18,578 nt of DNA from a virus (lineage: Duplodnaviria; Heunggongvirae; Uroviricota; Caudoviricetes), in IMG/VR virus record IMGVR_UViG_2778261535_000010. The stretch is one strand, 5' to 3'. The notes under the pieces were generated by a model, which did not search any database, was not told the origin of the DNA, and saw only the letters and a program-made list of their open reading frames with translations. A program made the position numbers and the translations under genes. Below are positions 1,498 to 18,578 of the stretch, one piece after another; positions within the stretch are counted from its first letter, which is position 1, and each line of letters starts with the position of its first letter.

Positions 1498-2199
1498 ATG
1501 GCCATGACCCCGTGTCAGCGACACCGAGCACGCGTGAAAGCCGCAAAGGCGCTGGATAAGTGCGAAGCCCTGACGGCATCGCCGGTCAGCTTTCACATTC
1601 AAATGCTGGAGCTGGAAAGGGATGTTGAACGGCTTCGCAGTCTGACGCGTGCAGAACGTATGGACATGAAGCGCGACGTTCTTTTGCCGCGCTGGATGCC
1701 GACCGTCGAGGCATATCTCGCCGGTGATGCCCGCTTTGCCAATCCGGCCCTGGTTTACTGCGTGATCTGGTTGTTCGATACGGGGGAAATGGGCAAGGCG
1801 CTGGACTGGGCTGACGTGGCTATCAGTGAGAGCCAGGCCACGCCGGAGAACTTCAAAAGCAACCTGCCTGCCTTTGTGGCCGACACGGTGCTGGAGTGGG
1901 CGATCATGCAGGCGGAAGCCGGTCACAGCATCGAACCCTATTTCAGCCGCACGTTTGAAAACATCCGCGAAAAGTGGCGTTTGCACGAAGACATTAACGC
2001 GAAGTGGTTCAAGTTTGCCGGCCTTTACCTGCTGCGCGACGAGAAGGGGCAGCCGCGAGCCACTGCCGTGGATGATGTGAACACGCTGGAGCAGGCCGAC
2101 GCCCTTTTGGCCCAGGCGGCGGCGTACAACAAAAACGCCGGAGTTAAGACCATGCGCGAAAAAATCCGCGCCCGGATTAACGGCCTGAACCAGCTTTAA
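1498..2199 (+). CDS. terminase endonuclease (small) subunit, gpM-like
   Basis: 233 aa; starts 2 nt after the capsid stop with a GGGAGGGGG RBS; position O-N-M matches P2 synteny. Confidence 0.7.
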   Translation: MAMTPCQRHRARVKAAKALDKCEALTASPVSFHIQMLELERDVERLRSLTRAERMDMKRDVLLPRWMPTVEAYLAGDARFANPALVYCVIWLFDTGEMGKALDWADVAISESQATPENFKSNLPAFVADTVLEWAIMQAEAGHSIEPYFSRTFENIREKWRLHEDINAKWFKFAGLYLLRDEKGQPRATAVDDVNTLEQADALLAQAAAYNKNAGVKTMREKIRARINGLNQL

Positions 2200-5548: not shown

Positions 5549-5860
5549 ATGATGAACGGAGAAACGTCACTGCTTGAAAAGCTGTTGCTTATCGGGGCCG
5601 TGATTGGCCTGGGGCAACTGATGGTCAGCAATGAGCGAATCACAACCCGCCTGCTGGTCGGGCGGATGATTCTGGGATCTGCGGTCGCACCGCTGGCCGC
5701 AATCCCGCTGCTGAAATTCCCCGATATGCCGGAACTGGTCGTCATTGGGCTGGCCTGCGCCCTGGGCATTCTGGGAAGCGCGTTTATTGAGGCCGGGTTA
5801 AAGCGCTGCCTGGATATGTATATCAAGCGATGGGGGAGCAAGCGCAATGAAACTGAGTGA
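5549..5860 (+). CDS. holin (class I-like, three predicted TM segments)
   Basis: 103 aa; tandem Met-Met start. Three hydrophobic stretches (LLEKLLLIGAVIGLGQLMV, LLVGRMILGSAVAPLAAIPLL, LVVIGLACALGILGSAFIEAGL) and a charged C-terminus (KRCLDMYIKRWGSKRNETE). Lies immediately upstream of the endolysin. Confidence 0.6.
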   Translation: MMNGETSLLEKLLLIGAVIGLGQLMVSNERITTRLLVGRMILGSAVAPLAAIPLLKFPDMPELVVIGLACALGILGSAFIEAGLKRCLDMYIKRWGSKRNETE

Positions 5861-6185
5861 AAAACAGCAACTTTTCACGGTGATGATCGCCAACCTGATT
5901 CATTTTGCCGAAGAAAAGGGTTATCGCCTGACGTTTGGCGAAGCGTACCGCACGCCGGAACAGGCCGCGCTTAACGCAAAAAAAGGGAGCGGCATTACTA
6001 ACAGCCTGCATACCCAGCGCCTGGCGGTGGATTTTAACCTGTTTATTAACGGCGATTACCAGACCGACAGCGCCGCATATCGCCCACTGGGCGAATACTG
6101 GGAATCTATCGGCGGATCGTGGGGTGGCCGTTTCAGTAAGCCGGACGGGAACCATTTCAGTCTTGAGCATAACGGGGTTCGCTGA
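5847..6185 (+). CDS. endolysin, L-alanyl-D-glutamate peptidase (peptidase M15 family)
   Basis: 112 aa; GGGGGAG RBS. Contains SLHTQRLAVDF (His-x6-Asp) and a C-terminal DGNHFSLEH His, the zinc-ligand pattern of T5-type M15 endolysins. Start overlaps the holin 3' end. Confidence 0.75.
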   Translation: MKLSEKQQLFTVMIANLIHFAEEKGYRLTFGEAYRTPEQAALNAKKGSGITNSLHTQRLAVDFNLFINGDYQTDSAAYRPLGEYWESIGGSWGGRFSKPDGNHFSLEHNGVR

Positions 6186-6568
6186 TGCGCAATTTGCTGG
6201 GTCTTTTGCTGATTCTGGTCGCTGCAATGTCAGCGGGCTGGCAGGCGCATGACTGGCACGACGCAAAGCTGCAACTCGCTGCCAGTGAAGCGGCAGAACA
6301 AACACGCCAGATTGTCGTTGAAGTGACGCAACAGTCTGGCGAAGCGCTGGAAGCAAAACTCGCGGGGCTAAAAGCCAATGAAAGGCACACGGAACGGGTT
6401 ATTCGCACAGAAATCATTAAGCCGGTTTTTAGCAACGTTTGCGCTTCTGATGATTACGTCCGGTTGTTCAACGAAAGTGCAGATCAAGCCGAACGAGAAT
6501 TATCAGGAAAACCAGCTGACACTTTGCCCGGTCACGCTGCCACGTCTGGCCGGACCGACCGGAAATGA
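6185..6568 (+). CDS. i-spanin (Rz-like)
   Basis: 127 aa; ATG overlaps the endolysin stop (TGATG). N-terminal TM segment LLGLLLILVAAM followed by a charged, probably coiled-coil, periplasmic region. Confidence 0.65.
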   Translation: MRNLLGLLLILVAAMSAGWQAHDWHDAKLQLAASEAAEQTRQIVVEVTQQSGEALEAKLAGLKANERHTERVIRTEIIKPVFSNVCASDDYVRLFNESADQAERELSGKPADTLPGHAATSGRTDRK

Positions 6569-14681: not shown

Positions 14682-16406
14682 ATGAAACCAATTAAACGCC
14701 TGTACCTTTCCTCTGATCCGGTCCATCTGATTGACTGCAATATCGTGCTGGAGCTGAACGCGTGCGGTCGGGGGTTTATTACGGCGGGGACCGAGACAGA
14801 TTACACCGGTAAAATAGTGCGTATCGATGTTGGTTATGATGGTCTGGTCCTGCGCTGGTTTACCGGGTATGTCGAGCGGTCACAGCCTGCTGATAATGGA
14901 ACATGCCGGTTGTTCGTGCGTGAGCTGGTAGGCATCTTTGATAAATTGTGGCCGTGTTCTTTCCAGCATCCAACGCTGCGCCAGATTACTGACTGGATAA
15001 GTGAGCAAAGCGGGCTGGCCGTCACAACGCCGGTCGGCGCTGCTTATGCAGATAAACCGATCCCCCACTTTACGCACAGCGGCACGGGCTATCAGCTTCT
15101 TGCCATTCTGGGCCGCGCATTTTCAGTGACGGATTATCTCTGGTATCAGCTGCCGGACGGGGATGTCTTCGTCGGCGCTGCGGATCACAGTCTTTTTGCG
15201 GGTAAACCAGTGGAGATCCCGCACGAATTTAGTCAGGCATCGGCAGGCGGTAATTCAATGGTTGTGCCGATGATTCAGAGCCTGCGCCCCGGCGTTGACG
15301 TCAACGGCCATCGGCTAAACCAGGTCCGGCTAAATAACGACGATATGGCAATCACCTGGCAGCCACGCAGCAAAGCCAACGGCCAGCCATTGCAAAAATC
15401 ACCGATTCAGCGGCAGATTGAAAACGCATTCCCGGAGCTGGCAAGCGGCCTGCATCTTCCAAAGTTCGCCAGAGTGGAAGCACCAAGCGAGGATGTATCA
15501 GGGGGGAATATTGCCGATCCATTCCGCCCGCGCTATGCCGTGGATCTCCAGCTGCTTGACGAAGACGGCAAGCCAGCCGCAAATACGCCGGTTTATTCTG
15601 CCGTTCCGCTACCTGTACCAATGGCGGGGAGCGAGTCGGGAATGTTCCAGTTTCCGCCCCCTGGCACGCTGGTTGAAGTCGGGTTCACGGAGGGGCGGCA
15701 GGATAAGCCCTTTGTGCGCCAGATTATGGCGGAGGGGCATAACCTGCCAGCGGTTAAACCCGGCGAGCAATTGCAGCAACAGCGCGATGGTGTATCGCAG
15801 CGCGTGACGGTTGCCGGAGACTGGGAACGCCAGACGGACCAGACAATTCGCGAAAACTCCATGACTCGCGAAGTCACCACCGACGAAGAGATCCGCAAAG
15901 TGGTTGTCCGTGAAACTACGGTCCAGGCAACAGATAAAACAACCGTGCTGGGCACGGCCACACTTCTGGCCGGGGCGGTGGTCCATATCAGCGAGGGTGA
16001 TTACAGTATTGGCACATCCGGCAACCTGACAGTAACCTGCAGCAAGGACAATTCCGTCAGTGTTGGCCGGAACGTGAAACGGGACGTCGCGGGCAATGTT
16101 ACAGACGACGTGAAAGGGAATGTCACGTCAAACGTCAGCGGCGCACTGACTGAAAAAATCAGCGGCATCCGCCGAAGTGTGGCCCAGGCGCAACAGTTGA
16201 TTGCCCCGGTGGTAAAACTGGGAAGCGAAGAGATTAACGTCCTGACACTACTCACTGACACCCTGGACGTGGTGAGGGTGCTGGCAGAGACTGCCGCATC
16301 ACATACTCACCCCAATACGGGGACCAGCGGGCAGGCTGCGCAGTTCACCGCAACGGCCACTAAAACCGGTACATTGAAAAGCAAATACGGCCCCCTGATA
16401 GCCTGA
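14682..16406 (+). CDS. baseplate hub/central spike protein (VgrG-like architecture; gpV-like C-terminus, possibly fused to a gpD-like N-terminus)
   Basis: 574 aa. The C-terminal region has octapeptide V-x-G repeats (DVAGNVTD / DVKGNVTS / NVSGALTE / KISGIRRS) visible as 24-nt periodicity around 16057-16170, and an H-x-H motif (SHTHP, about 16301-16309) like spike apex iron sites. It is the last gene before att, as gpD is in P2. Confidence 0.55.
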   Translation: MKPIKRLYLSSDPVHLIDCNIVLELNACGRGFITAGTETDYTGKIVRIDVGYDGLVLRWFTGYVERSQPADNGTCRLFVRELVGIFDKLWPCSFQHPTLRQITDWISEQSGLAVTTPVGAAYADKPIPHFTHSGTGYQLLAILGRAFSVTDYLWYQLPDGDVFVGAADHSLFAGKPVEIPHEFSQASAGGNSMVVPMIQSLRPGVDVNGHRLNQVRLNNDDMAITWQPRSKANGQPLQKSPIQRQIENAFPELASGLHLPKFARVEAPSEDVSGGNIADPFRPRYAVDLQLLDEDGKPAANTPVYSAVPLPVPMAGSESGMFQFPPPGTLVEVGFTEGRQDKPFVRQIMAEGHNLPAVKPGEQLQQQRDGVSQRVTVAGDWERQTDQTIRENSMTREVTTDEEIRKVVVRETTVQATDKTTVLGTATLLAGAVVHISEGDYSIGTSGNLTVTCSKDNSVSVGRNVKRDVAGNVTDDVKGNVTSNVSGALTEKISGIRRSVAQAQQLIAPVVKLGSEEINVLTLLTDTLDVVRVLAETAASHTHPNTGTSGQAAQFTATATKTGTLKSKYGPLIA

Positions 16407-16477
16407 CAAAAAGCGGCATAACCGCACACATCACCAGACACCACAGAACGCGCCACAGCAGGCGCAAATATTAAAGG

Positions 16478-16515
16478 TCGCCAACGTGCGGCCTTTCGTT
16501 CGTTCGTTCAACAGC
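16478..16515 (+). terminator. putative intrinsic terminator of the late operon
   Basis: GGUCGC/GCGGCC stem (one G-U pair) with a 6-nt loop, followed by the U-rich UUUCGUUCGUUCGUU, about 70 nt after the hub/spike stop. Confidence 0.35.
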
Positions 16516-16952
16516 GGCCCACAGCGTAAGCGACAGCAGGCAGACGGAAGCGGATCCAGGACGGAAACGGCGCTACACCGCACCCGCCTGCGCAGTTTGG
16601 ATCATAAAAATTTTGCAAAAGAAATTTTGCGCAAAGCACCCCGCCAGCCTGCGCCGCTGATGGGATTTTGCATCCTGCGGGCGTTTGCACGCTGCGCAAA
16701 GATTTGCAGCACTTTGCAAAAGTCACCGCGCAGTCAGTCGCTAACTGACTGGATAACATGATGTTTTTAAAAGGATCGTTTTGGTTTTCGTGACGATCAA
16801 AATGATTCGGTGGCATCCGGTAGTTTTCGGACGCGGATATCGTGAAGCCTTGCGCGGCGCGGGCTGGCGGCAGGTTTGCTTTGATTTGGGTTTTGCAAAA
16901 TGATGCACGAAGATTTGATAAAAGAATCTACAGCGAAGGGGGGGGAAGTATT

Positions 16953-16984
16953 AAAAAACCCCGTTTTGTGGACGGGGTTTGTTT
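16953..16984. terminator. bidirectional hairpin terminator
   Basis: CCCCGT (16959-16964) and ACGGGG (16972-16977) form a 6-bp stem with a 7-nt loop, flanked by AAAAAA on the 5' side and TTTGTTT on the 3' side. On the minus strand it is followed by six U. Confidence 0.45.
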
Positions 16985-17005
16985 GATGTGGTCAATGTGT
17001 GGACG
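16967..17005 (+). promoter_or_regulatory. candidate arm-type integrase binding sites (three direct repeats)
   Basis: TGTGGACG at 16967-16974, TGTGGTCA at 16987-16994 and TGTGGACG at 16998-17005, within 80 bp of the att core. They resemble the P2 Int arm-site consensus (TGTGGACA) as I recall it. Confidence 0.45.
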
Positions 17006-17045
17006 TTGTAAGAAATAAATCCATTTATTTCAGTAGATTACAGGC

Positions 17046-17072
17046 AAAAAATAAGCCCGTGTAAGGGAGATT
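17046..17072. other. P2-type attachment site core (prophage-host junction, attR or attL)
   Basis: AAAAAATAAGCCCGTGTAAGGGAGATT matches the 27-bp P2 att core from memory. It coincides with the 3' terminator half of cyaR. Phage-type sequence lies to the left and host genes to the right. Confidence 0.65.
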
Positions 17073-17132
17073 ACACAGGCTAAGGAGGTGGTTCCTGGTA
17101 CAGCTAGCATTTTATGGGTTATGTTTTTCAGC
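17046..17132 (-). ncRNA. cyaR: CyaR (RyeE) Hfq-dependent small RNA
   Basis: The reverse complement reads GCTGAAAAACATAACCCATAAAATGCTAGCTGTACCAGGAACCACCTCCTTAGCCTGTGTAATCTCCCTTACACGGGCTTATTTTTT, matching the E. coli CyaR sequence as I recall it, including the terminator hairpin and U tail. It lies downstream of yegQ as in E. coli. Confidence 0.85.
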
Positions 17133-17139
17133 GAAACGG

Positions 17140-17182
17140 ATGATAACCTTAATAAATGCAGCTGTATGTGATCGGTTTCTAA
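17140..17182 (-). promoter_or_regulatory. cyaR promoter with class II-type CRP site
   Basis: On the minus strand, a TATCAT -10 hexamer (17140-17145) sits about 7 nt upstream of the CyaR 5' end. A CRP-like site TTAGAaaccgaTCACA (17167-17182) is centred near -42. cyaR is known to be CRP-activated. Confidence 0.5.
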
Positions 17183-17216
17183 GAATTTTCCATCCGGGAA
17201 AAATAATCGAAATTAA

Positions 17217-18578
17217 TCACTTACCGTGGGGGTTACGCGTGGTTTCCCCGGAGAAATTACGCATCAGCAGCGCGTAATTTAGCTCAAGATCCTGCGGCAC
17301 CGGGATCCACACAGTATAACCATCGCCTGGTGCGACCGGCATAGCTTCACCTTTGGCGTTTTCCATATGCTCAAGGGTAAAGTTAATGTTGCCTTGCGGC
17401 GTCATCAGCTCAAGGCTGTCGCCAACGGAGAATTTATTTTTCACCGCTACCGCCGCGAGGTCGCCCTTGCGCTCACCGGTAAACTCACCAACAAACTGCT
17501 GGCGGTCAGAAACTGAATAACCGTATTCGTAGTTCTGATAATCGTCGTGAGTATGACGACGCAGGAAACCTTCGGTATAGCCACGATGCGCCAGACCTTC
17601 CAGAGTTTCCAGCAGGCTGGTATCGAATGGTTTGCCCGCAGCGGCATCATCGATAGCTTTACGATAAACCTGTGCGGTGCGTGCGCAATAGTAGAAAGAT
17701 TTGGTACGGCCTTCGATTTTCAGCGAATGCACGCCCATTTTGGTCAGGCGTTCTACATGGGCGATGGCGCGCAGATCTTTCGAGTTCATGATGTAAGTGC
17801 CGTGCTCATCTTCAAACGCGGTCATATACTCGCCCGGACGCTGGGCTTCTTCGATCATAAACACTTTGTCAGTTGGTGCGCCGATACCCAGCGTCGGCTC
17901 AACATTTTGCACCGGAATCGGCTCGTACTTGTGTACGATGTTGCCAACGTCATCTTCTTTCCCTTCCTGGACGTTGTACTCCCAGCGGCAGGCGTTGGTG
18001 CAGGTGCCCTGATTCGGATCGCGCTTGTTGATGTAGCCAGAGAGCAGGCAGCGACCAGAGTAGGCCATACACAGCGCGCCGTGAACGAAGATCTCTACCT
18101 CCATATCCGGCACCTGATTGCGGATCTCTTCAATCTCTTCCAGCGACAGCTCGCGAGAGAGGATCACGCGGGTCAGGCCCATTTGCTGCCAGAATTTCAC
18201 CGTCGCCCAGTTCACGGCGTTAGCCTGTACCGAGAGATGGATCGGCATTTCAGGGAAGTGCTCACGCACCAGCATAATCAGCCCTGGATCGGACATAATC
18301 AGCGCATCCGGCCCCATTTCCACCACCGGTTTCAGGTCACGGATAAAGGTTTTCAGCTTGGCGTTGTGCGGTGCAATGTTGACCACGACATAAAACTTTT
18401 TCCCCAGCGCATGGGCTTCATTAATGCCGAGCTGAAGATTTTCGTGGTTGAATTCGTTGTTGCGCACACGCAGGGAGTAACGCGGCTGGCCCGCATAAAC
18501 AGCATCTGCGCCATAAGCGAAAGCGTAACGCATATTTTTCAGCGTTCCCGCCGGGGAAAGGAGTTCCGGTTTAAACAT
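17217..18578 (-). CDS. yegQ: peptidase U32 family protein YegQ (tRNA hydroxylation protein TrhP)
   Basis: Complete 453-aa ORF; the window ends exactly at its start codon. MFKPELLSPAGTLKNMRYAFAYGADAVYAGQPRYSLRV... matches E. coli YegQ as I recall it. Has the conserved neighbourhood with cyaR. Confidence 0.85.
   Translation of the reverse strand: MFKPELLSPAGTLKNMRYAFAYGADAVYAGQPRYSLRVRNNEFNHENLQLGINEAHALGKKFYVVVNIAPHNAKLKTFIRDLKPVVEMGPDALIMSDPGLIMLVREHFPEMPIHLSVQANAVNWATVKFWQQMGLTRVILSRELSLEEIEEIRNQVPDMEVEIFVHGALCMAYSGRCLLSGYINKRDPNQGTCTNACRWEYNVQEGKEDDVGNIVHKYEPIPVQNVEPTLGIGAPTDKVFMIEEAQRPGEYMTAFEDEHGTYIMNSKDLRAIAHVERLTKMGVHSLKIEGRTKSFYYCARTAQVYRKAIDDAAAGKPFDTSLLETLEGLAHRGYTEGFLRRHTHDDYQNYEYGYSVSDRQQFVGEFTGERKGDLAAVAVKNKFSVGDSLELMTPQGNINFTLEHMENAKGEAMPVAPGDGYTVWIPVPQDLELNYALLMRNFSGETTRNPHGK

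What the first reader, a model, noticed from the sequence alone, without database searches (positions are those of the whole stretch)
16590..16905. Non-coding att-proximal arm carries an array of TTTGC(A/G)...CAAAG motifs
The 640 bp between the last phage gene and the att core has no credible ORF but contains at least eight TTTGC-containing motifs, several forming near-palindromes (TTTTGCAAAAG at 16611-16621 and 16713-16723, TTTTGCGCAAAG at 16625-16636, TTTGCACGCTGCGCAAAG at 16684-16701, TTTTGCAAAATG at 16891-16902). This density looks like a cluster of protein binding sites (excisionase, IHF or a phage regulator) or an unannotated RNA element. P2 has only a short gap plus ogr at this position, so this arm is not P2-standard.
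Basis: seen in the sequence. Interest (0 to 1): 0.55.

Follow-up and report, generated by a model that had tools for sequence, protein, structure and literature searches.

The report
Phage DNA-packaging (cos) site, not att arm
The TTTGC motif cluster is real and conserved, but it most likely belongs to the site where this P2-like prophage cuts and packages its DNA (an HP1-style cos site next to the attachment site), so it is a useful annotation, not a new kind of element.

Summary
Observation confirmed. There are 10 strand hits of TTTGC(A/G) in 109 bp (16612-16720), against a maximum of 5-6 in simulations, and this is the only such cluster in the whole related phage genome.

No ORF is conserved, no RNA covariation is seen, and the motif is absent from the C/cox switch, the late promoters and attP. 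The array sits 40-330 bp to the right of the most conserved block of the arm, GACGGAAACGGCG|CTACACCGCACCCGC|CTGC (16560-16591).

Five genome records assembled from virion DNA break exactly in that block:
- ESSI-2 carries the 15-mer at both ends.
- SW5 starts there.
- SI7 and SW3 lack 7 nt there.
- ev239 has a sequencing adapter fused there.

About 60 prophage copies are intact at this position. The layout matches the annotated cos of Haemophilus phage HP1 almost base for base: ACGGAAA repeats left of the cut, short T-rich words at about +40, +50, +130 and +140, and an inverted ACGNAA at about +215.

In more than 100 distant relatives the cut-site core is unchanged, but each TTTGCA word is replaced in place by TTTCAG. 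This looks like a packaging-specificity swap of the lambda/21 cosB kind. The reader protein (probably terminase small subunit gpM) and the exact overhang remain inferred.

The parts
16475..16494 (+). Hairpin AGGTCGC-CAACGT-GCGGCCT after the last late gene (stop at 16406). Probably the terminator of the tail operon.
   Evidence: Read from the sequence. The stem is kept with a compensatory change in relatives (GGTCGC/GCGGCC versus GGCCGA/TCGGCC). It is not called by the simple terminator scan. Inferred.
16543..16566 (+). Two direct GACGGAA repeats (16543-16549 and 16560-16566) just left of the cut. Possibly a cosQ-like or terminase-recognition word.
   Evidence: Conserved in TTTGC-class relatives. 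Both copies change to GACGTAA in the L051 group. HP1 has three ACGGAAA repeats left of its annotated cohesive end, the nearest 7 nt away.
16573..16587 (.). Predicted cohesive-end segment (cosN core) CTACACCGCACCCGC, inside the most conserved block 16567-16591.
   Evidence: The ESSI-2 record has this 15-mer at both ends. SW5 starts at 16580 and ends at 16581. SI7 and SW3 lack 16573-16579. ev239 has a Nextera adapter fused at the base equivalent to 16580. The core is intact in about 60 prophage copies, and the flanking core is nearly invariant in the distinct segments recovered by a pattern scan.
16596..16603 (.). Conserved TTTGGATC, containing a Dam site (GATC).
   Evidence: Identical in almost all sequences of both array classes. 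Function not tested.
16612..16635 (.). Sites S1 (TTTGCAAA, 16612-16619) and S2 (TTTGCGCAAA, 16626-16635).
   Evidence: 99% and 95% column identity in 15 diverged relatives. Replaced in place by TTTTCAGTTT and TTcTaCAAA in the other class. HP1 has TTTCA at +38 and +49; here the words start at +40 and +54.
16642..16664 (.). Conserved CCGCCAGCC...CTGGG element between the two groups of sites.
   Evidence: Kept in both array classes and in Yersinia phage YenM_324. Function unknown.
16684..16720 (.). Sites S4 (TTTGCAC, 16684-16690), S4' (GCGCAAA, 16694-16700), S5 (TTTGCA, 16703-16708) and S6 (TTTGCAAA, 16713-16720).
   Evidence: 91-98% column identity. Replaced in place by CTGAAAA, TTGAAAA, ATTTCAG and TTTTCAG in the other class. 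HP1 has TTTCA at +129, +139 and +149; here the words start at +112, +131 and +141.
16741..16800 (.). Conserved CTAAC..TG..TAAC, the A/T-rich TGATGTTTTTAAAAGGATC, an inverted ACGNAA word (TTTTCGT at 16785-16791; TTTCCGT in most relatives) and two GATC sites.
   Evidence: The inverted word is TTACGT in the L051 group, matching that group's left repeats. HP1 has TTCCGT at +221; here it starts at +213.
16845..16863 (.). Conserved GAAGCCTTGCG..GC..GGG. In many relatives this is a CTTGCGGCGCAAG palindrome, so it may be a further TTGC/GCAA site. It is degenerate in the window.
16892..16899 (.). Site S7 (TTTGCAAA, followed by GCAC/GCGC). This is the last conserved element. Homology to Salmonella phage SI7 ends at 16902.
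   Evidence: 100% column identity. Replaced by AAACTGAAA in the other class. Module boundary.
16967..17072 (.). attR: P2-type Int arm words TGTGGAC (16967-16973), TGTGGTC (16987-16993) and TGTGGAC (16998-17004), and the 27-bp P2-type core AAAAAATAAGCCCGTGTAAGGGAGATT (17046-17072, core sequence recalled from knowledge of P2) inside the 3' end of cyaR. This is not part of the array.
   Evidence: 83% identity to annotated P2 attP with its Int and IHF features, over 16974-17072. Sequence. CyaR lies at 17049-17134 on the minus strand.

Best explanation
The arm is the cos (cohesive-end) DNA-packaging site of an ESSI-2/Irrigatiovirus-type P2-like prophage. It lies between the last tail gene and attP, the same gene order as in Haemophilus phage HP1, and not next to the portal gene as in P2. 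Terminase cuts concatemeric phage DNA inside CTACACCGCACCCGC (16573-16587).

The TTTGC(A/G) words (S1, S2, S4/S4', S5, S6, S7, from +40 to +327 after the cut) are repeated recognition words on the side of the cut that faces attP. They are most likely bound by a phage-encoded packaging protein. The best candidate is the small terminase subunit gpM (window 1498-2199). Binding would assemble terminase in a fixed geometry and set packaging specificity, as the R sites of cosB do in lambda-like phages. The GACGGAA repeats left of the cut, and their inverted copy at about +213, are a second word system that varies independently.

What is shown: the location of virion-record breakpoints, conservation, in-place word replacement, correspondence with HP1, and absence of coding or RNA signal.
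For: 1. Record ends or assembly anomalies of five genomes assembled from virion DNA fall within 16572-16588. About 60 prophage copies are intact there.
2. Genome logic. SW5, SI7, YenM_324 and ESSI-2 have P2-type portal, large and small terminase genes but no room for a cos next to the portal gene. This arm is the largest non-coding stretch in SI7 and among the largest in SW5 and YenM_324.
3. HP1 has the same order: orf35 baseplate gene, about 190 bp, cos, attP, int. It also has the same sub-layout: ACGGAAA repeats left of the cut, T-rich words at +38/+49/+129/+139, and an inverted ACGGAA at +221. A published review states that HP1 and phiCTX have cos next to attP (PMC2771037).
4. The phiCTX record annotates repeats R4-R6 around its cos.
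5. 141 of 146 distinct cos segments, recovered by a pattern scan for the right half of the core, were classified. They split into two nearly exclusive array classes: 28 TTTGC and 113 TTTCAG. The words are swapped at the same positions while the 7 nt left of the scanned pattern stay nearly invariant.
6. Both classes occur in phages of Escherichia (the window and E. coli prophages versus ev239). This argues for a phage-encoded reader and against a host factor.
7. The motif cluster is unique in the SI7 genome and absent from the C/cox switch, the P-O late promoter region and attP.
8. There is no conserved ORF, no family hit, no RNA family and no covariation.
Against: No experiment shows cutting or binding here. 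The virion-record evidence is indirect and internally inconsistent on geometry: a 15-nt terminal repeat in ESSI-2, against breaks at 16572/16580 in four Nextera assemblies. No metagenomic contig was seen to end at the cut.

The terminase genes are about 14 kb away, unlike lambda, where cosB adjoins Nu1. The conserved footprint (about 370 bp) is larger than the 55-bp P2 cos core (PMC5694545) or the roughly 200-bp lambda cos (PMC4669245), so part of it may serve another function.

Covariation of gpM with array class could not be separated from phylogeny. No IHF consensus is present.
Confidence: 0.62

Rival explanations
1. The cos cut site is here, but the TTTGC words are operators for a phage-encoded regulator unrelated to packaging. 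Such a regulator might control transcription running from the late operon into the variable cargo slot between cos and attP, or an antisense transcript.
For: The slot right of the array holds different cargo genes in relatives: AbiH in E. coli GN06156, gp26 in SI7, an O-acetyltransferase in ev239, gene 038 in YenM_324. The conserved footprint is longer than known cos sites. S7 lies 170 bp beyond the main array.
Against: No sigma-70-like promoter is found in 16300-17300. The words occur nowhere else in the SI7 genome. The array is conserved whatever lies downstream, including nothing in the window. HP1 has the same word positions next to its annotated cos.
Confidence: 0.15
2. The words are accessory sites of the attP arm, for Cox/excisionase, IHF or Int.
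For: The array lies within 350-450 bp of the att core. P2 Cox is known (from general knowledge of P2) to bind arrays of short repeated boxes.
Against: The motif is absent from the C/cox switch region, where Cox-type proteins also act, and from SI7 attP. Homology among relatives stops at about 16905, and the sequence beyond diverges, with different repeat words in some relatives. P2 attP homology and the TGTGGAC arm sites lie at 16967-17072. No IHF consensus is present.
Confidence: 0.05
3. The array is a replication or partition element (iterons) of the phage.
For: It has repeated short words, conserved GATC sites and A/T-rich stretches.
Against: These phages carry a P2-type A protein. From knowledge of P2, its origin lies inside the A gene. 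The array is tied to the virion-end site and to HP1 cos. No replication initiator gene lies nearby.
Confidence: 0.05
4. The arm encodes a small RNA or is a decayed gene.
For: SI7 and SW5 annotate a 55-aa hypothetical protein over the array. The palindromic words can be drawn as hairpins.
Against: Both long reading frames carry stops or frameshifts in relatives. There are no Pfam or PHROG hits. Rfam finds nothing in 16407-16920. The alifold covariation term is 0 and -0.31, and the paired columns are invariant.
Confidence: 0.04

Closest known systems
cos site of Haemophilus phage HP1 (Hpunavirus, Peduoviridae)
   Same: Same place in the genome: last baseplate gene, about 170-190 bp, cos, a few hundred bp, attP, int. 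Same sub-layout: ACGGAAA direct repeats ending 5-7 nt before the cut, short T-rich words at about +40, +50, +130 and +140, and an inverted ACGNAA at about +215.
   Different: The HP1 overhang sequence (annotated as 9 nt, TCCTTCCCC) is unrelated to CTACACCGCACCCGC. The HP1 words are TTTCA, not TTTGCA. There is no detectable overall DNA similarity. To my knowledge the function of the HP1 repeats has not been tested either.
cos sites of P2 and phiCTX
   Same: Same virus family and the same terminase proteins (gpP, gpM family PF05944). The cohesive-end segment is GC-rich and is followed by TGCGC. phiCTX has annotated repeats (R4-R6) flanking cos and has cos near attP.
   Different: P2 cos adjoins the portal gene and has a 19-nt end and a 55-bp core (PMC5694545). 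No TTTGCA array is seen in the P2 cos flanks that I read.
lambda-type cos (cosQ-cosN-cosB), with the lambda/21/N15 packaging specificities
   Same: It has a nicking core flanked on one side by several repeated words. Related phages keep the basic cos structure and the nicking core but differ in the words, which is how lambda and 21 differ (PMC4669245).
   Different: The proteins are unrelated in sequence. No IHF consensus is present. The terminase genes are not adjacent. There are more words (6-7) spread over about 290 bp, plus a second word system (ACGGAA) on both sides.

Membership tests
cos site of a P2/HP1-type phage | The ends of mature virion DNA map to the site. | tested here: met
   Indirect, from public records of virion-derived genomes. 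ESSI-2 carries the 15-mer at both ends. SW5 starts at 16580 and ends at 16581. SI7 and SW3 lack 16573-16579. ev239 has an adapter fused at 16580. Prophage copies are intact.
cos site of a P2/HP1-type phage | Staggered nicks give complementary single-stranded ends of defined length and polarity. | tested here: inconclusive
   ESSI-2 suggests 15 nt, consistent with a 5' overhang. The Nextera assemblies suggest a 7-nt discontinuity. The two cannot be reconciled without raw reads or run-off sequencing.
cos site of a P2/HP1-type phage | A single non-coding site per genome, conserved among phages that share the terminase genes. | tested here: met
   The core occurs once in each of SI7, SW5, YenM_324 and ESSI-2. 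It was found in more than 120 viral contigs and 14 bacterial genomes. gpM, gpP and gpQ homologues are present.
cos site of a P2/HP1-type phage | Positional correspondence with a cos site whose cohesive ends are annotated in the public record. | tested here: met
   HP1 comparison.
cos site of a P2/HP1-type phage | Sufficient in cis for packaging by a helper phage. | not testable with these tools
   Needs a plasmid transduction assay.
lambda-type cosB (small-terminase binding array) | Repeated words on one side of the nick site that differ between related phages with the same nick core. | tested here: met
   TTTGC class (28 segments) versus TTTCAG class (113 segments), replaced site for site, with CTACACCGCACCCGCC unchanged.
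lambda-type cosB (small-terminase binding array) | An IHF site between the repeats. | tested here: not met
   WATCAANNNNTTR does not occur in the arm.
lambda-type cosB (small-terminase binding array) | The words are bound by the small terminase subunit. | not testable with these tools
   Covariation of gpM with array class is confounded by phylogeny.
attP arm sites (Int arm-type, Cox/Xis, IHF) | The words travel with the integrase/excisionase module and recur at the Cox-controlled early switch. | tested here: not met
   Conservation ends at about 16905, and the sequence beyond diverges among relatives. There is 1 hit in the C/cox gap and 0 in attP of SI7, against 13 in the cos arm.
structured non-coding RNA | Compensatory base changes, or a match to a known family. 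| tested here: not met
   Rfam finds only CyaR, outside the arm. Covariation terms are 0 and -0.31, and the paired columns are invariant palindromic words.
protein-coding gene or remnant | The reading frame is kept open in relatives, or a family match exists. | tested here: not met
   Stops or frameshifts occur in many homologues in both candidate frames. No Pfam or PHROG hit. No large translated database search was run.

The most novel reading that the evidence does not exclude
HP1-type cos sites may be built from two independently exchangeable word systems around an invariant cutting core: ACG(G/T/A)AA repeats on both sides, and a 6-7-site array that has switched from TTTCAG to TTTGCA in one clade. 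On this reading the switch is a true packaging-specificity change that isolates co-resident ESSI-2-like and Irrigatiovirus-like phages (and any satellites) from each other's terminases. It would be a second natural system, independent of lambda/21, for studying how terminase specificity evolves.
Probability: 0.3. Interest if true: 0.5.

Novelty: new member of a known kind. Interest (0 to 1): 0.3.

Why it matters
It places the packaging site of a widespread group of small P2-like prophages of Enterobacterales (Irrigatiovirus, Seongnamvirus/ESSI-2, Evevirus, Tresduoquattuorvirus). Public records of these phages leave the region unannotated or call it 'hypothetical protein'.

It explains assembly artefacts in published genomes: a 7-nt deletion in SI7 and SW3, adapter sequence in ev239, and the terminal repeat in ESSI-2.

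It gives precise, testable words for packaging-specificity experiments.

It corrects the reading of the arm. Only about the last 100 bp (16967-17072) belong to attR. The rest is cos, and the gap between cos and attP is a cargo slot.

Tried and rejected
- Covariation of head and packaging proteins (Ogr, Q, P, O, N, M, L) with array class. All proteins show the same jump between the two classes (for example M is 75-100% identical within the TTTGC class and 48-61% across classes). The TTTGC class is therefore one clade, and no single protein can be picked out.
- Search for viral contigs that end at the cut. None was found, and most IMG/VR hits are integrated copies.
- Search for satellites that carry only the cos region. 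11 of 116 cos loci lack a baseplate homologue upstream. Of these, 2 are chance pattern matches and the rest come from contigs of 5-45 kb, some phage-sized with extra cargo. None is a clear satellite.
- IHF consensus: none in the arm.
- Sigma-70 promoter scan: none in 16300-17300.
- Sigma-54, DnaA-box and NtrC-like readings of TTTGCA were considered by eye and dropped. Spacing or conservation did not fit.
- Literature. I found no description of cos for ESSI-2, SI7 or YenM_324 in the searchable library.
- The strict covariation I first suspected, between the left ACGNAA repeats and the inverted copy at +213, holds for the TTTGC clade and the L051 group but not across the TTTCAG class.

Full report
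**Context.** The window is the right end of a P2-like prophage. Its late genes are on the + strand: capsid at 473-1495, small terminase gpM at 1498-2199 (PF05944), and tail genes up to a 574-aa baseplate protein at 14682-16406 (PHROG 2258). To the right lie the sRNA gene cyaR (17049-17134, minus strand, Rfam 100.7 bits) and yegQ (17217-18578, minus strand). The non-coding arm 16407-16963 is 93% identical to arms of prophages in at least 19 complete E. coli genomes, and up to 16902 to Salmonella phages SI7, SW3 and SW5, genus Irrigatiovirus. Positions 16974-17072 resemble annotated P2 attP with its Int and IHF features. They contain TGTGGAC-type arm words and the P2-type core sequence (recalled from knowledge of P2) inside the 3' end of cyaR. 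Only about the last 100 bp of the arm is therefore attR.

TTTGCR is not enriched in the window as a whole (45 hits, 43 expected), but 10 strand hits fall in 16612-16720. Simulated sequences never exceeded 5-6 hits in any 120 bp. In the complete SI7 genome this is the only such cluster. The arm holds 13 TTTGC/GCAAA hits, while every other intergenic gap holds 0-2. I aligned the arm with about 20 homologues whose baseplate proteins are 66-98% identical, from Citrobacter, Buttiauxella, Erwinia, Rahnella and Kluyvera genomes and from viral contigs. There are essentially no indels from 16558 to about 16850 apart from single-base differences in two sequences, and the motifs are conserved in place. 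Six sites (S1, S2, S4/S4', S5, S6, S7) have 91-100% column identity against 71% for the other columns. The copies at 16667 and 16876 are not conserved.

**It is neither coding nor RNA.** The two long ORFs across the array (+ 16486-16761, - 16508-16816) are interrupted by stops or frameshifts in many homologues. They have no Pfam or PHROG match. The 55-aa 'hypothetical protein' annotated there in SI7 and SW5 is therefore probably spurious. Rfam finds nothing in 16407-16920. RNAalifold on either strand only pairs the palindromic words with each other, and the covariation term is 0 or -0.31.

**It is not an att-recombination array.** The word is absent from the C/cox switch, the P-O late promoter gap and attP of SI7. 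No IHF consensus occurs in the arm. Similarity among relatives stops at about 16905. The sequence beyond diverges among relatives, and some carry different repeat words there.

**What it is.** The most conserved block of the arm is GACGGAAACGGCGCTACACCGCACCCGCCTGC (16560-16591). It is present in every homologue, including those with only 61-68% baseplate identity. Genome records derived from virion DNA break exactly there:
- Cronobacter phage ESSI-2, in window orientation, starts with CTACACCGCACCCGC and ends with ...GGCA-CTACACCGCACCCGC.
- SW5 starts at the base equivalent to 16580 and ends at 16581.
- SI7 and SW3 lack exactly CTACACC, 16573-16579.
- Phage ESSI2_ev239 has a Nextera adapter fused to the base equivalent to 16580. 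Its other end runs to ...CTACACCGCACC and then continues into unrelated sequence that I could not place.

SI7, SW3 and SW5 were Nextera XT/Ray assemblies of phage DNA (PMC6783827). About 60 integrated copies are intact at this point.

These phages have P2-type portal and terminase genes, but the gaps around the portal and Ogr-like genes are too small to hold a cos site. This arm is the largest non-coding stretch in SI7 and among the largest in SW5 and YenM_324. The Ogr/Delta zinc-finger gene, which in P2 lies before attP (my knowledge of P2), lies here downstream of the portal gene.

**Comparison with HP1.** HP1 and phiCTX are reported to have cos next to attP, unlike P2 (PMC2771037). The HP1 record shows the order orf35 (baseplate), about 190 bp, cosL, attP at 251-694, int. 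The fine structure matches:

| Feature | HP1 | Window |
|---|---|---|
| Repeats left of the cut | ACGGAAA x3 plus ACGTAA; the nearest ends 7 nt before the cut | GACGGAA x2; the nearest ends 5-6 nt before 16573 |
| T-rich words right of the cut | TTTCA at +38, +49, +129, +139, +149 | TTTGC at +40, +54, +112, +131, +141 |
| Inverted ACGNAA | TTCCGT at +221 | TTTTCGT at +213 (TTTCCGT in most relatives) |

 The phiCTX record also annotates repeats (R4-R6) around its cos. In P2 and phiCTX the cohesive end is followed by TGCGC, as is the 15-mer here.

**The array is a specificity element.** A scan of viral contigs for GCACCCGCCTGCNNNNTTTG gave 146 distinct cos segments; because the pattern fixes that half of the core, its own invariance is not evidence. 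Of these, 141 were classified and they fall into two nearly exclusive classes. Twenty-eight have at least 6 TTTGC/GCAAA hits and at most 1 TTTCAG. The other 113 have 3-7 TTTCAG/CTGAAA hits. Class consensus sequences show a site-for-site replacement: S1 TTTTGCAAAA to TTTTCAGTTT, S4 TTTGCAC to CTGAAAA, S5 TTTGCAG to ATTTCAG, S6 TTTGCAAAA to TTTTCAGTT, and S7 TTTGCAAAA to AACTGAAA. The cut-site core and the CCGCCAG..CTGG element stay the same.

Both classes occur in phages of Escherichia (for ev239). The left-hand ACGGAA word varies independently: ACGTAA in the L051 group, which keeps TTTGCA, and ACGAAA or ACAAAA in the other class. A constant nicking core with swapped flanking repeats is the pattern known from lambda and 21, where small terminase reads the R sites of cosB (PMC4669245).

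**Mechanism proposed.** Terminase (gpP plus gpM) assembles on the array to the right of the cut, and probably on the ACGGAA words. It nicks within 16573-16587. Packaging would start with the end that carries the array (array, attP, int, early genes) and finish with the tail genes. This is analogy, not data.

**Open points.**
- The overhang geometry is unresolved: 15 nt according to ESSI-2, but a 7-nt discontinuity in four tagmentation-based assemblies.
- The reader protein is not identified. Covariation with gpM could not be separated from phylogeny.
- Some of the roughly 370-bp conserved footprint, such as the GATC sites and the 16741-16863 elements, may serve another function.

**Verdict.** This is a real, conserved protein-site array that most likely belongs to a previously unannotated HP1-type cos site. 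It is a new member of a known kind of element and of modest interest.

Noticed in passing
window 17049-17134 (-): The sRNA gene cyaR (RyeE) is intact. Its 3' terminator hairpin contains the P2-type att core (17046-17072), so the prophage is integrated at the cyaR 3' end.
   Followed up: partly
L071 (SI7) 20469-20490; MK972714 (SW3) 202-249; L341 (ev239, reverse complement) first 77 nt: Public phage records carry artefacts at cos. SI7 and SW3 have a 7-nt deletion. In ev239, Illumina/Nextera adapter sequence is left at one end and unrelated sequence of unclear origin follows the core at the other.
   Followed up: yes
L072 9043-9369 (-), L139 7082-7402 (-), L340 20277-20597 (+): In this phage group the Ogr/Delta-type zinc-finger gene lies immediately downstream of the portal gene, not before attP as in P2. 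The equivalent gene would lie upstream of the window start.
   Followed up: partly
between cos and attP: L002 6592-7557; L341 27190-28293; L071 20831-21037; L139 28228-28809: The gap between cos and attP is a cargo slot: AbiH abortive-infection gene in E. coli GN06156, an O-acetyltransferase in ev239, and small unknown genes in SI7 and YenM_324. The window has only about 60 bp there, with a G8 run and a hairpin (16956-16980).
   Followed up: no
L284 (IMGVR_UViG_2846535271_000018): One contig keeps the cos core CTACACCGCACCCGCC and TTTGGATC but has lost the whole word array to its right. It may be a natural deletion or a defective prophage.
   Followed up: no
window 16600, 16775, 16796 (and 16553): GATC sites are conserved at fixed positions around the cut in both array classes, and these phages encode Dam-type methyltransferases (SI7 gp32). 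Methylation control of packaging, as at P1 pac (from general knowledge of P1), is conceivable but untested.
   Followed up: no
window 5549-6568: Holin, endolysin and spanin genes sit inside the tail gene cluster, between the tail tube and chaperone genes, by correspondence with the SI7 annotation. This differs from the P2 gene order.
   Followed up: no
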